A stretch of DNA of 64,000 nt from Podarcis tiliguerta (taxonomy: Eukaryota): NCBI GenBank assembly GCA_965153285.1, contig OZ229116.1; one strand, given 5' to 3'. A program made the position numbers. Of this stretch, positions 41,601-47,600 are shown piece after piece. Each line of letters opens with the position of its first letter. Position 1 is the first letter of the stretch.

Positions 41601-44600
41601 GTGTTTTTTTCAGCAGTGCTCAGAAACACCCATAGTTCAAGCACCCAAGAGAGGATGTAGGGTCCATGAATAAAGACATGTTCAGTTTCTGTTAATTGAT
41701 TCTCATGGAAACTTACAGATTCTGGCTTCACACACTTAACTCAAGGCAGTGTCAATTTACTCTTGGCAGAAAGCCAAGGTCTGCTTGACCTAGAAACTAC
41801 TTACTCTGATTGGTTAACGACCAGCACTCAACTCTGTTATCTGGGAATGCTAGCACAGTTTGGTGTGAGGTGTGGTAGGAGTAGGAGTGCTGTGTATGGT
41901 TAAGAGAGAGAGAGAAAGAAAGGATTTATTTTGCTTTGTTTTATATGCAGAAACTCTGCTGGTTTCTTTTCCTTTTTAATAAATCCTGTAAATAGTTATT
42001 CTGAGTCTAGCTGACTAGTCATTTCCACCTCAACTAGCTTCTTCGCTGTGCAGGAAAACTCTGCTACGTTTGGGCTAAAGCCATTAGAGCTATGCCTGAC
42101 ACTTCAAAGTTCCATGAGGTTATGGGTAATGTGCTGCCAGCCTGAGTTGTGGTGGTGTCAGCATCAACGGTGTTGGTTCCAGTAGTTCCAGAAGTTGTTG
42201 TTGCTGTTGGTGCAGCAGATGGACACTGGCTGGTTCCTGACTGTTGTGAGCTGGTGACGCAGTGGACACAAGGACAACAGACGCAGCGTGTGAATGCTGG
42301 TAGCTGTGGTTCCTGTTTTCTCTCTCGGTGGTCGTGAGTAGCTGGTTCCGGGTTCCAGGGACATCGCTCTCAAGATGGCCTCACAACCAGTTCAGATGGC
42401 TTTTGAGCGTCTGAATGACTCCAATTACTTGCTGTGGTCGGAACGCATGCAGGCAGTGCTGCAGAGGGATCGTCTCTGGCAAGTGGTGAGTAAGTTTCCT
42501 GCGAAGCCTGATGATGAAGACCTCGATAAAGACCAAAGAGCAAGGGCCACAATTGTCTTGGGGCTGGAAGATTCCCAGTTGCCGTATGTGAGGGGAATCA
42601 AGACAGCTAGAGGTGTGTGGCAAGCACTTAAAGAACTCCATGTGCGTGAGACAGCGGTTTCCAAGCTGTTCATTCGCAAGGCATTGTACAAGGCAATGTT
42701 ACAGCCTGGGGTTACAATGCAGGAACACCTACACAGTTTACAGTTAAAGTTTGCTGCGCTACAGGAAAGAGACTGTACATTAGACCAGCAGGAGAAGGTG
42801 GCTATTATTTTGAGTTCTCTCCCGGAAAGCTGGGATAATTTAGTTTTGTCTCTAGAAGGTTTACAGGAGCGTGATTTATCAGTCAGTTATGTCACTGGGC
42901 GTTTGATTGAAGAATGGCAGAAGAGGCAAGAAAGGTCGTTTGCTGCAGAGGCTTCTACAGGCGGGCGGTTTGGAAGGAGTTCTCATGCCGTGCCAGAGGT
43001 GACGCAAAAGCAGCGTACCGGTGAGGAGTCAGCGCTTGCTGTTAGGCATTGTTTCCGATGTGGGTCTTCAGCGCATCTAAAACGACAATGTCCGGAGTTG
43101 GTCAAGTCTCAGTGGCCGGTGCAGGAGCAGAGACGAGATCAGCAGCAGCAGCAGCGTAAAAAGAAATTCTTCAAACGAAAACAGTCGGCTCAGCTGGTGA
43201 CCGCAGAGGTCAAGATTGCTGATGAGAAACAAGCTGTCTGGGTGGTCAATTCGGGAGCGTCTCGGCACATCGTAAATTCAGATGAATTGTTTGTTTCCAA
43301 GAACTCAGCACAGCGCAGCCAGGTGACTCTAGCAGACGGAAGTACTTCCGAAGTGATTTCGGGGGGTGCAGTTTTTGTTCCTTGTCTTCGTGAATGCCTG
43401 CAAAATGTACTTTGTGTACCTTCATTAAGGAGCAATCTGATGTCTGTAGACTGTTTGCTAAAAGCTGGGTTTAAAGTGTATTTTGAAGGAGACAGTTGCA
43501 TTATTAAGAAGGCTGGTGAGATTTTAGGCACTGCTAAGTCAGAGGGAGGCTTGTTTTGGCTTAAAGCAGGATCTCAAGTTGCAGCAGTAGTCAGTAAATC
43601 TCAGCCTGCAGTGAATAACAAAGCTATACATGACAACTGTGTGCACTTATTGCATAGGAAAATGGGGCATGCTGGCTGGAAAAGTGTACTAAAAATGTCT
43701 GAATTGGCTGATGGGGGTAATTTAAAGAGTTGTAACAAGTACCTTGATTGTAATGTTTGTAAAAAGGTTAAAACCCACAGAGTCTCGTACCCCAGAAGTG
43801 ACAGAGTTAGTGAGTCACCGCTACAGCTGGTTCACATGGACGTAATTGGTCCATTTCCTGTAAGCAGGGGTGGATCGCGTTTTTCATTAACAATTGTGGA
43901 TGACGCCACGCGTTACTCTTGGGTTTTTCCCATGAAGAATAAGGGTGACGTGTTCACTAAGTTTAAAGGCTGGGTGGCATCTGTGGAAAGATTTCTGTCC
44001 ACTAAACTCAAAAGGATTCAGACGGACAGAGGTGGCGAATTTATGTCAAATGCTTTTAGAGATTGGTTACAAAAGCGTGGCATTGGGCATAGAAAAACGA
44101 ACGCTTTTTCCCCAGAGGAGAATGGCGTTGCAGAGCGAAAACATAGATCTTTACAAGATATGATGTTTGCCATGCTTGATGATGCTGATTTGCCCATGTC
44201 TTATTGGGGGGAGAGCATGCTCACCGCGTGTTATCTCCAAAATAGGCTCTTTCATCAAACAATAGGTACAACTCCGTACTTTAAATTGTTTCACAAAAAA
44301 CCCAAAATTGACCATTTGCATGTGTTTGGATCAAAAGCCTGGGTATTAATTCCAAAACAAATGAGAAAGAAGGGAGATCCTAAGACCAAACAGTTAGTGT
44401 TTGTGGGTTACCAGGAGCTGGGAAAAGGTTTCCGCTTTGCTGAAGGGACAAATGGCATTGTGATCTCCAGGAATGCCAGTTTTTGTGAACATAGTGGCTG
44501 GGAGAGACTACATGCCAATACTGAGGTTTGGTTTGAACCTTCTCAGGAGCTTCATGACTCTGAAGGTAAACATAGAGAATCAGAGTCTGAGGGGGAGGAA

Positions 44601-47600
44601 AGTTCAGATAAGAGCTCTCAAGAAAGTGGAATTAGCCAGAGACCGGTTGCTAAGCAACAAAAGAGAGGTCATAGTTCTGAGGAGGAAAGTGGGTCAGAAG
44701 AAAAATTTTCTCCCAGAAGATCTAAACGACAAAACAAAGGAGTGCCTCCGGTGCGTTTTTCTCCGGATACTGCAAATGTGTTTAGTGTAGTTGCAGAGCC
44801 CAAGAGTTTTCAGGAGGTGTTAAAATTACCAAAAGAGGAGGCAGAGCTCTGGAAACAGGCAATGGAGGAAGAGATGTCCTCTCTGAATGAGCACAAGGTC
44901 TTTACACCAGTAGCAGCGCCTGAGGGGGCAAAGATTGTAGGCTGCAGGTGGGTGTACAAACTTAAACCTCTGGTGACAAGAAAGTACAAATACAAAGCTC
45001 GTTTAGTGGCTCAAGGATACTCTCAGAGGCCTGGAAAAGATTATGACGAGACTTTTTCCCCTACTGCTAAGGCGGAAAGTGTAAGGCTGATTCTAACGCT
45101 TGGAGCAAAGAGAAAACTTCTGTTAAACCATTTTGATATCCAGACTGCATATTTACATGCATCAATATCAGAAGACCTGTATCTAGCCGAACCTCCTGGT
45201 TATGAGACAGGTTCCAATAGAGTGTTGAAATTAAACAAAGCTCTATATGGTCTCAAACAGGCTGCAAGATCTTGGAACAAATGTTTCCATGAGGCCTTAG
45301 TGTCATTTGGTTTCAAGCAGAGTACAGCTGACAATTGCGTTTATGTACGTGGTACAGGCAGTGATCAAGAGTTTTGTCTGATTTATGTAGATGATGTATT
45401 GTATGCTTGCAAAACTGATAAACAAACTAAAAGGTTTGCCAAGCAATTGTCCAGTAAGTTCAAAATGAAAGACTTAGGCCCGGTTAGGACATATCTAGGG
45501 TTGGAAGTGTGCTGGGCCCAAGATGGCAGCTGCCTAATTAGTCAGCAGAACAAAATTAAACAACTACTGACTACATACAGGATGCAGGATTGCAAAGGGG
45601 CAGTGGTGCCTATGGATCAAGGTTTCATAAAAACACTTCATATAGATGAGAGTCCTGAATTTGAACATCCTGATGTATATCATTCTGTAATTGGAAGTTT
45701 ATTGTATCTAGCACAGTGGTCCAGACCTGATATTAGCTATGCAGTAGGCATATTAAGTAGATTGGTCTCAAAACCCACACTAAATGCCTGGAAAGGGGTA
45801 AAACAAGTTCTGAGATACCTCAAACAGACAATTGGCTATATGTTACAATTAAATTCTTCAGAGGATGAAATGTTGACCTGCTATTGTGATAGTGACTGGG
45901 GAAATTTGCCAGATAGAAAATCTGTCACAGGACTAGTCATAATGGTCGGTGGAGCTTTAATCAGCTGGCGCTCACGCAAGCAAGACATTGTAAGTGTGTC
46001 ATCAACGGAATCCGAGTACGCCGCATTGAGTGAATTGTGCAACGAGGTGATTTATTTCAAGCATTTGTTAGCAGATTTAAATGTAAATTGTGGAGAACCA
46101 GTACGCGTTTACATTGATAATCAGGCTTGTATAACCTTAAGTAAAACAGAGGGTTTCAAATCACGTTCCAAACATATCTCTGTAAAATACCAAAATGTAC
46201 GTTGCTGTGTACAAGACAATATAATCACATGTACTTATGTATCAAGTGAAGAAAATGTAGCAGATGTATTAACTAAACCATTGGCAAAGATAAAGAACAA
46301 GCAAATGTGCAAGAGTTTAGGTTTGCTGGAAAAATAATCTCCTACATAGGTGTTATTTGATGTTAATTGTCCAGCAGAATCTGTGAGGGGGTGTTCAGTT
46401 TCTGTTAATTGATTCTCATGGAAACTTACAGATTCTGGCTTCACACAATTAACTCAAGGCAGTGTCAATTTACTCTTGGCAGAAAGCCAAGGTCTGCTTG
46501 ACCTAGAAACTACTTACTCTGATTGGTTAACGACCAGCACTCAACTCTGTTATCTGGGAATGCTAGCACAGTTTGGTGTGAGGTGTGGTAGGAGTAGGAG
46601 TGCTGTGTATGGTTAAGAGAGAGAGAGAAAGAAAGGATTTATTTTGCTTTGTTTTATATGCAGAAACTCTGCTGGTTTCTTTTCCTTTTTAATAAATCCT
46701 GTAAATAGTTATTCTGAGTCTAGCTGACTAGTCATTTCCACCTCAACTAGCTTCTTCGCTGTGCAGGAAAACTCTGCTACGTTTGGGCTAAAGCCATTAG
46801 AGCTATGCCTGACACTTCAAAGTTCCATGAGTTCTGCATTATTTTCTTAACTGGGAAGGTATTTTCTTCAAAGGTAGTATGAAGCTGCCTAACTCATATG
46901 ATGCATAAACCTGTGGCAGCATTGCCAATATCCTCTCCATGACAGGATGACTGTGGGAGACTTGAACACCATTTGTACATCCACACTTCTAACCAGAGGA
47001 TGGTTAATCGCAGGCTGTGATACAACTTCTCTTTTTTTACACACAGCCTGTCATACAAATGAAATAAAGGTCTGGTGATGCACAGTGTGCTGAAATAAAC
47101 GTTCATTTCAACACACCGTGCATCATCAGCTATTTATATCAGCACTTTGCATGTCATCAGCATTTTGACAGAGAGCCTTTCACCATTCTGTCATAGTGTA
47201 GTATGCAGAATACTATGGAGCTAGTTAAGTTCAGAATGACAGGGCATTCATTTTCACTTTTGCAGGGCTTAAGTGGTCAGAACACACCATTGTTACTTCA
47301 ACATATGTCATTCCCTCTTTCTATTCTGTTACACTATCCCACAAAATTATTTTTATTTTGTAAGGTTTTTCTCTAACTTATCCTTGGGTCCTTCAGTACA
47401 CTAGTCTTAGCCCCCTCTGGCTGATCCCAATTTTTACAATCACACTGGGATTTACAATGATAAGTCATGCAATACTCATCAGGACTAAGGATCAGCTAAC
47501 ACATGGTGTTCACCATGTGTGAATGAAACAGTTCAGATAGAGTTCATGTCCTCACAAACAACATGATGTATTGTGGAATGCTCAGTGGTCAGTAATGTAC

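What the first reader, a model, noticed from the sequence alone, without database searches (positions are those of the whole stretch)
41679..46830. Very young, open-frame Ty1/Copia retrotransposon in an amniote genome
Seen: a complete element with an unbroken 1320-codon ORF, intact IN, RT and RNase H catalytic residues, many retained CpGs, and LTRs differing at 1 of 439 positions. Established: Copia is common in plants, fungi and insects, sparse in vertebrates, and not known as an active family in mammals or birds. Inference: a recently or currently active lizard family, possibly uncharacterised. Its insect-copia-like priming site makes horizontal origin worth testing.
Basis: partly seen in the sequence, partly recalled or inferred. 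Interest (0 to 1): 0.75.

Follow-up and report, generated by a model that had tools for sequence, protein, structure and literature searches.

The report
Young full-length Copia retrotransposon copy
This is a real, almost undamaged jumping gene of the Copia type with nearly identical end repeats, but such elements are already known to be abundant and recently active in lizards and snakes, and this copy carries one change that probably disables its protease.

Summary
Window 41679-46830 is a full-length Ty1/Copia LTR retrotransposon. It has two 439-nt LTRs with 1 mismatch and one 1320-codon gag-pol frame. The domains run gag, protease, integrase, reverse transcriptase, RNase H. The conserved acidic and zinc-binding columns of IN, RT and RNase H are all kept.

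Three points weaken "complete, active, novel":
- The protease has one missense change at a column invariant in 118/118, 90/90 and 6/6 relatives, so this copy is probably not autonomous.
- There is no target-site duplication. The copy may be an inter-element recombinant or an assembly join, and LTR identity may not date an insertion.
- The kind is in print. Copia was found in 23/24 squamate genomes with record copy numbers, all of the Mtanga clade, and horizontal entry has been discussed (PMC11889832). Copia is expanding and expressed in sea snakes (PMC8872380).

A 97%-identical RT-RNase H fragment exists in public data. The nearest named relative is a lizard protein at 48%. The host, the clade and the tRNA primer could not be tested here. 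Verdict: an ordinary new member of a known kind, of low interest.

The parts
41679..42117 (+). 5' LTR, 439 nt. It starts TG. It carries a TATA-like stretch near 41942-41946 and an AATAAA at 41978-41983.
   Evidence: Alignment with the 3' LTR shows 1 mismatch. blastn gives 99.77%. The motifs were read directly, and their roles are inferred.
42118..42374 (+). Untranslated leader. Its first bases, next to the LTR, are the expected place of the primer-binding site.
   Evidence: Position only. The 12-nt tRNA-Met 3'-end site of GalEa elements, taken from PMC3587641, is absent here. Complementarity to a host tRNA was not testable.
42375..46337 (+). Single gag-pol open reading frame, 1320 codons plus stop.
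42411..43097 (+). gag: capsid region and CX2CX4HX4C zinc knuckle (residues 13-241).
   Evidence: Pfam DUF4219 and Retrotran_gag_2. Residues 14-241 match 'Copia VLP protein' 8vvw_A at E 1.8e-17. The knuckle was read.
43239..43472 (+). Protease domain (residues 289-366). It is broken once, by one missense change at a family-invariant column. It has no stop and no frameshift.
   Evidence: Pfam Pol_BBD at E 7.8e-15. It keeps 6 of 7 nearly invariant columns. The departing column is identical in 118/118 relatives and the query's residue occurs in 0/118. The same result holds in 90/90 relatives and 6/6.
43599..44501 (+). Integrase: zinc region, catalytic core and SH3-like domain (residues 409-709).
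   Evidence: Pfam gag_pre-integrs (weak), rve and SH3_retrovirus. PDB integrases 7z0h_W at E 3.6e-13 and PFV integrase. His/Cys columns 4/4 and acidic columns 5/5 kept.
44895..45614 (+). Reverse transcriptase (residues 841-1080).
   Evidence: Pfam RVT_2 at E 2.3e-69. 36/36 nearly invariant columns kept. Acidic columns 5/5 kept.
45615..46334 (+). RNase H region (residues 1081-1320).
   Evidence: 30/30 nearly invariant columns kept. Acidic columns 6/6 kept. No Pfam model matched this part. The assignment rests on position and on the alignment with relatives.
46385..46391 (+). Short polypurine run that abuts the 3' LTR.
   Evidence: Read directly. Its role as plus-strand primer is inferred.
46392..46830 (+). 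3' LTR, 439 nt.

Best explanation
A full-length Ty1/Copia (Pseudoviridae-type) LTR retrotransposon copy lies in a CpG-depleted, vertebrate-like genome. Its family has been copying itself recently. It most likely belongs to the Copia lineage that the literature reports as abundant in lizards, snakes and tuatara (Mtanga-like). How it works, inferred from the family: transcription starts in the 5' LTR and ends in the 3' LTR. The single gag-pol frame yields capsid, protease, integrase and RT/RNase H. Reverse transcription inside capsid particles starts at a site next to the 5' LTR and at the polypurine run, and integrase inserts the DNA copy. This particular copy has every frame open, but it carries one missense change at an invariant protease column. 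It therefore probably cannot process its own polyprotein and would depend on sister copies. It lacks a target-site duplication, so its two ends may stem from two insertions (inter-element recombination) or from an assembly join. Shown here: anatomy, domain order, conservation counts, LTR identity, absence of a duplication, and the existence of a near-identical second copy. Inferred: the life cycle, the protease defect's effect, the clade, the host, and the age (about 1 My at an assumed 1e-9 substitutions per site per year; one difference allows roughly 0.03-6 My).
For: The ORF and LTRs are as described. The domain order is gag-PR-IN-RT. The capsid region matches the solved 'Copia VLP protein' at E 1.8e-17, and the integrase matches solved integrases. 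Nearly invariant columns kept: RT 36/36 and RNase H region 30/30. Acidic and His/Cys columns of IN, RT and RH are all kept. The protease departs at one column that is invariant in 118/118, 90/90 and 6/6 relatives. P0123 is 97% identical over 461 aa (449/461). Both copies keep 64/64 nearly invariant columns, and their departures from 80%-conserved columns are 9 shared and 1 private each. The nearest named relative is a Podarcis lilfordi protein, 127/266 identical. CpG o/e is 0.48 in the ORF against 0.22 in the flanks. Literature: PMC11889832, PMC8872380, 10.1101/867069, PMC4350176.
Against: No 5- or 6-nt duplication exists at any offset around the ends, although Copia families make 5-bp duplications (PMC10886601, passage). 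The LTR-LTR identity runs 3-4 nt past the last CA dinucleotide, so the repeat as delimited does not end in the usual CA. The LTR itself is CpG-poor (o/e 0.17). No other copy, solo LTR or Copia remnant lies in the window, so the family's copy number and the true LTR ends are unknown. The protease change could be a sequencing error or could be shared by the whole family, because no same-family copy covering the protease was found. Clade and host rest on literature and one named hit, not on a test. Best full-length relatives are only 34-42% identical.
Confidence: 0.75

Rival explanations
1. Assembly artefact. Reads from many near-identical copies were collapsed or joined inside the element. On this reading the two flanks come from different loci, and the LTR identity reflects the assembler rather than age.
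For: No target-site duplication is present. Literature reports hundreds to thousands of Copia copies in many squamate genomes, which is the setting in which such joins happen. The window has N runs, the nearest 2.2 kb upstream of the element.
Against: No N run lies inside or next to the element. The LTRs are not strictly identical, since they differ at 1 site. Both 1-kb flanks are unique within the window.
Confidence: 0.2
2. A real locus, but a recombinant. Unequal recombination between two young copies left one chimeric element with the left flank of one insertion and the right flank of another.
For: A duplication is absent despite 99.8% LTR identity. The internal frame is intact.
Against: No second copy or solo LTR lies in the 64 kb. 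Nothing else marks a deletion or inversion.
Confidence: 0.3
3. A fully autonomous, currently active master copy.
For: The 1320-codon frame is open. The conserved columns of IN, RT and RH are intact. The LTRs are near-identical. A second open copy exists.
Against: One missense change sits at a protease column invariant in 214 of 214 relatives that cover it. There is no target-site duplication.
Confidence: 0.08
4. Recent horizontal arrival from an arthropod, as the priming site suggested to the reader.
For: Named relatives in the RT-RNase H part are mostly arthropods and a cnidarian at 35-42%. The best named full-length hit is a parasitoid wasp protein at 35%. Horizontal entry of the clade into sarcopterygians is a published hypothesis.
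Against: No relative above 45% identity other than the 97% same-family fragment appeared. In gag-protease a lizard protein is nearest at 48%, against 27% for the only named arthropod hit, Aedes. Truncated-tRNA priming is not specific to insects. Vertebrate transposon proteins are poorly represented in these libraries, so the arthropod names may reflect sampling.
Confidence: 0.05

Closest known systems
Mtanga-clade Ty1/Copia elements of Lepidosauria (squamates, tuatara), as surveyed by Klai et al. 2025 (PMC11889832) and the tuatara genome preprint (10.1101/867069)
   Same: A Copia element in a vertebrate-like genome, full-length, with little-damaged sequence that points to recent copying. The nearest named relative is a lizard protein.
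   Different: Membership was not tested.
Drosophila copia
   Same: Single gag-pol frame. The capsid region matches the solved 'Copia VLP protein' (8vvw_A, E 1.8e-17). The domain order is the same.
   Different: Only distant sequence similarity. Whether gag is made by splicing, as I recall for copia, was not examined.
Podarcis lilfordi protein named 'mucin-2-like' (P0387)
   Same: 48% identical (127/266) over the gag end, zinc knuckle and protease. It carries Pfam Pol_BBD.
   Different: It is a 261-aa fragment of another family. Unlike the window copy, it keeps the family residue at the invariant protease column.
GalEa-clade Copia of marine metazoans and fish
   Same: Copia superfamily, metazoan hosts, LTRs that start TGT.
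   Different: The strictly conserved 12-nt primer-binding site of metazoan GalEa elements (PMC3587641, PMC5445492) is absent next to the 5' LTR. One search found 6 matches with up to 2 mismatches in the window against 4.8 expected by chance, and none was near 42118.
Yeast Ty1
   Same: Same superfamily and domain order. The integrase matches chain 7z0h_W 'Integrase' at E 3.6e-13. That this chain is Ty1's integrase is my recall, not the tool's wording.
   Different: Ty1 makes gag and pol by frameshifting (recalled). Here there is one continuous frame.

Membership tests
Ty1/Copia LTR retrotransposons (Pseudoviridae) | Pol domain order is protease, then integrase, then reverse transcriptase/RNase H | tested here: met
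   Pfam Pol_BBD 289-366, rve 481-579, RVT_2 841-1080.
Ty1/Copia LTR retrotransposons (Pseudoviridae) | Copia-type RT (RVT_2) and copia-type gag | tested here: met
   RVT_2 at E 2.3e-69 and Retrotran_gag_2 at E 8.6e-33. Match to PDB 'Copia VLP protein' at E 1.8e-17.
Ty1/Copia LTR retrotransposons (Pseudoviridae) | Direct long terminal repeats with TG...CA ends | tested here: inconclusive
   The LTRs are 439 nt with 1 mismatch and start TG. The shared repeat runs 3-4 nt past the last CA.
Ty1/Copia LTR retrotransposons (Pseudoviridae) | 5-bp target-site duplication | tested here: not met
   No 5- or 6-nt match at any offset from -6 to +6 at the start and -8 to +6 at the end. The only 4-nt matches lie inside the LTR. 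This bears on how this copy came to lie here, not on what kind of element it is.
Ty1/Copia LTR retrotransposons (Pseudoviridae) | Primer-binding site next to the 5' LTR, complementary to a host tRNA | not testable with these tools
   There is no tRNA gene in the window and no eukaryotic tRNA set on hand. Only the GalEa-type site could be excluded.
Ty1/Copia LTR retrotransposons (Pseudoviridae) | Polypurine tract before the 3' LTR | tested here: met
   A 7-nt purine run at 46385-46391 abuts the LTR.
Mtanga clade of Copia | RT/RNase H groups with Mtanga references with bootstrap of at least 70 and at least 3 species (criterion of PMC11889832) | not testable with these tools
   No reference sequences were reachable and the supplements are closed. 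The paper states that only Mtanga is found in Lepidosauria.
Mtanga clade of Copia | Host among Lepidosauria or Lissamphibia (for the vertebrate members) | not testable with these tools
   The flanks hold no recognisable gene: 270 open stretches were scanned and no family passed its cut-off. Rfam gave 0 matches. CpG o/e of 0.22 fits a vertebrate.
Autonomous (self-sufficient) element copy | Uninterrupted gag-pol frame | tested here: met
   1320 codons with no stop.
Autonomous (self-sufficient) element copy | All enzymatic domains keep the family's invariant columns | tested here: not met
   The protease departs at 1 column that is invariant in 118/118, 90/90 and 6/6 relatives. IN, RT and RH keep their acidic and His/Cys columns.
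GalEa clade of Copia | Strictly conserved 12-nt primer-binding site right after the 5' LTR (PMC3587641, PMC5445492) | tested here: not met
   No match with up to 2 mismatches near 42118.

The most novel reading that the evidence does not exclude
The family is transposing now in this host, and protease-defective but otherwise open copies such as this one are carried along by the proteins of sister copies. Also, the lack of a target-site duplication, together with a repeat that runs past the terminal CA, records an entry that integrase did not make, for example capture of reverse-transcribed DNA at a chromosome break.
Probability: 0.08. Interest if true: 0.45.

Novelty: new member of a known kind. 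Interest (0 to 1): 0.17.

Why it matters
If the family is active, it is one more example of the lively Copia load of lepidosaurs. That load contrasts with the absence of Copia in birds and mammals, and it is already documented at clade level. The copy could serve as a marker for insertion polymorphism in its host. It adds no new mechanism and opens no long-standing question. The question of how Copia reached sarcopterygians is already posed in print, and it needs broad phylogenies rather than this one copy.

Tried and rejected
- Phage collection, searched with the LTR: no match. It was an off-target collection.
- Rfam at gathering thresholds on the whole window: 0 matches.
- tRNA scan: 0 genes.
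- Pfam on all 120 open stretches of at least 75 aa outside the element: one sub-threshold chance hit only.
- Pfam on 150 of the 187 open stretches of 55-74 aa, namely the 150 longest (57-74 aa): 0 families. The host could therefore not be named.
- tblastn of the polyprotein and of the 386 held relatives against the window: 0 hits outside the element at E of 1e-3 or better.
- blastn of the element and of both 1-kb flanks against the window: no other copy, no solo LTR, no repeated flank.
- The Atlas could not read the window's protein or P0123. On P0125 it gave Copia clusters without useful taxa.
- NCBIfam gave only sub-threshold transposase likenesses of the integrase core.
- A domesticated host gene was rejected, because near-identical LTRs flank the frame.
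- Contamination was rejected as far as one can tell, because the element is contiguous with CpG-depleted flanks.
- The prokaryote-only genome-contig scan was not used, because it cannot bear on a vertebrate transposon.
- The collections viral contigs and metagenome contigs and all paper supplements were closed. Repbase and Dfam are not on hand. Whether this exact family is already catalogued therefore stayed unchecked.
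Full report
**1. Is it there?**

Yes. The + strand carries one open reading frame, 42375..46337, of 1320 codons starting with ATG. The next longest ORF in the whole 64-kb window is 183 aa and spans an N run. Two direct repeats, 41679-42117 and 46392-46830, align with a single mismatch, and the identity runs one base further. blastn gives 99.77% over 439-440 nt.

The repeat starts TG right after a 7-nt purine run (46385-46391). The 5' repeat is followed by a 257-nt leader before the ATG. The window has four N runs, none inside or next to the element. 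I did not fill them.

**2. What does it encode?**

Pfam places these domains along the protein:
- DUF4219 and Retrotran_gag_2 at 13-188
- Pol_BBD (the protease region) at 289-366
- a weak gag_pre-integrs match at 409-466
- rve at 481-579
- SH3_retrovirus at 639-709
- RVT_2 at 841-1080

This is the Ty1/Copia order, with integrase ahead of reverse transcriptase. Against solved structures, residues 14-241 match 'Copia VLP protein' (8vvw_A, E 1.8e-17). The integrase part matches chain 7z0h_W 'Integrase' (E 3.6e-13) and foamy-virus integrases. A CX2CX4HX4C knuckle closes gag (read).

**3. How intact is it?**

I aligned the protein with the 120 relatives listed and counted, per domain, the columns where at least 90% of relatives agree.

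| Domain | Nearly invariant columns kept |
|---|---|
| gag | 2/2 |
| Protease | 6/7 |
| Pre-integrase zinc region | 6/7 |
| Integrase core | 10/11 |
| SH3-like domain | 6/7 |
| RT | 36/36 |
| RNase H region | 30/30 |

All nearly invariant acidic columns are kept: IN 5/5, RT 5/5, RNase H region 6/6. So are the four His/Cys columns of the zinc region.

The protease is the exception. Its single departure sits at a column where 118 of 118 relatives carry the same residue and none carries the query's. A second alignment repeated this result with 98 full-length relatives from the exhaustive search, where 90 of the 90 that cover the column agree. It also held in all 6 hits, the lizard protein included.

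The count of breaks is therefore:
- Protease: one missense change, with no stop, frameshift, insertion or deletion.
- All other genes: none found.

I deliberately give neither the place nor the residue. From what is established about retroviral-type aspartic proteases, a change at a family-invariant column is likely to abolish or cripple processing. This copy is probably not self-sufficient. That is an inference. It could also be a sequencing error or a trait of the whole family, because no same-family copy covering the protease was found.

**4. Is it a clean, recent insertion?**

One difference in 439 sites gives K = 0.0023. At an assumed 1e-9 substitutions per site per year (my assumption, not a call) that is about 1.1 My. 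A single difference allows roughly 0.03 to 6 My.

CpG observed/expected is 0.48 in the ORF against 0.22 in the flanks, which fits youth in a methylated genome. The LTR itself is CpG-poor at 0.17.

Two results speak against a simple story:
- No 5- or 6-nt duplication flanks the element at any offset tried, whereas Copia families make 5-bp duplications (PMC10886601, passage).
- The shared repeat runs 3-4 nt beyond the last CA dinucleotide.

Both 1-kb flanks are unique in the window, and the window holds no other copy, solo LTR or Copia remnant. The likeliest readings are a chimera of two young copies by unequal recombination, or a join made by the assembler inside a high-copy repeat. In either case the LTR identity would not date one insertion. 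An entry not made by integrase is a bolder third option.

**5. Relatives**

- Word-indexed search with the whole protein: 327 proteins at E of 0.001 or better among 7114 candidates. The best are only 34-36% identical over the full length. The best named one is a Leptopilina boulardi (wasp) protein at 35%.
- Exhaustive profile-free search of 1.84 billion representatives with the IN-RT-RNase H part: 221,792 hits. The best 150 are at 32-42% identity, with one exception.
- The exception is P0123, 461 aa and 97% identical (449/461) to the RT-RNase H end. It comes from an unnamed 1787-nt contig, in a cluster of 7 members. I did not trace it.
- Short high-identity fragments could lie below the 150 rows shown.
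- The window copy and P0123 both keep 64/64 nearly invariant columns. Their departures from 80%-conserved columns are 9 shared and 1 private each. The family therefore looks constrained in this part.
- In RT-RNase H the next best hit is an unnamed protein at 45%. Named hits are a spider and a mosquito (41-42%), another mosquito (35%), a pseudoscorpion (38%), a coral (40%), a fungus (39%) and plants (32-35%).
- In the gag-protease part the nearest hit is a Podarcis lilfordi protein named 'mucin-2-like', 127/266 identical (48%). Unnamed hits follow at 28-32%, and an Aedes protein at 27%.

**6. Host**

I could not name it. In all, 270 open stretches outside the element gave no Pfam family above cut-off. 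Rfam gave nothing at gathering thresholds, and no tRNA gene is present. GC of 40% and CpG o/e of 0.22 fit a vertebrate.

I do not take the window for human. Full-length Copia is reported absent from mammals (PMC4350176, passages).

**7. What is known**

- Chalopin et al. 2015 (PMC4350176, passages): Copia is present in fish, amphibians and reptiles and absent from birds and mammals. They infer it for the ancestral vertebrate mobilome.
- Klai et al. 2025 (PMC11889832; abstract, passages and section 13 read): Copia was found in 23 of 24 squamate genomes. Thirteen squamates had very high copy numbers, snakes averaged over 2,500 copies, and one sea snake had over 7,000.
  - Only the Mtanga clade occurs in Lepidosauria.
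  - 90% of Mtanga clusters come from squamates.
  - The authors discuss amplification from rare active copies, or horizontal acquisition by sarcopterygians.
  - Their method selects little-damaged elements as signs of recent transposition.
- Galbraith et al. 2022 (PMC8872380, passages): Copia is expanding and expressed in hydrophiine snakes.

The kind of thing found here is therefore in print, including the horizontal-transfer question. Whether this exact family is catalogued I could not check. Repbase and Dfam are not on hand, and the supplements of PMC11889832 (species tables and about 1,200 reference sequences) are closed.

**8. The priming-site argument**

[quoted passage not shown] One search found 6 matches with up to 2 mismatches in the window against 4.8 expected by chance, and none was near 42118.

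Priming from a 3'-truncated tRNA is described for Drosophila copia, yeast Ty5 and some plant and fungal Copia (PMC10886601, passages). It would therefore not mark an insect origin even if present. I had no eukaryotic tRNA sequence from any tool, so the complementarity stayed untested.

**9. Verdict**

This is an ordinary, well-preserved Ty1/Copia copy of a lineage already known to thrive in lepidosaurs. It is young-looking, but it probably has a dead protease and it has no target-site duplication. At most it is a new member of a known kind, and its interest is low.

No repaired, consensus or ancestral sequence was made.

**10. Left open by closed or missing resources**

- The Atlas could not read the window's protein.
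- Paper supplements were closed.
- No vertebrate genome or repeat library was available.

Noticed in passing
window 10102-10445 and 14834-15183: Two 350-nt arms in inverted orientation, 86% complementary, enclose about 4.4 kb. No Pfam domain was found in the open stretches between them. This may be a decayed element with long inverted ends, or two copies of one repeat. A 48-nt piece of the arm also occurs at 9021-9068.
   Followed up: partly
window 11265-11494 and 60665-60880: A dispersed repeat of about 230 nt, 85-90% identical in direct orientation. It was not classified.
   Followed up: no
window 16001-26000: A low-GC block (0.32-0.37, against about 0.40-0.45 elsewhere) holds three of the four N runs (19839-20050, 22306-22509, 25360-25515) and several dinucleotide microsatellites. 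The N runs were left as they are.
   Followed up: no
window 42001-46000: The element's coding strand is G-rich. Its GC skew is +0.17 to +0.20, against about -0.06 to +0.06 in the neighbouring flanks.
   Followed up: no
P0387 (public protein, Podarcis lilfordi): A lizard protein annotated 'mucin-2-like' is in fact a fragment of a Copia gag-protease. It carries Pfam Pol_BBD and is 48% identical to the window's protein. The name looks like an annotation artefact.
   Followed up: partly
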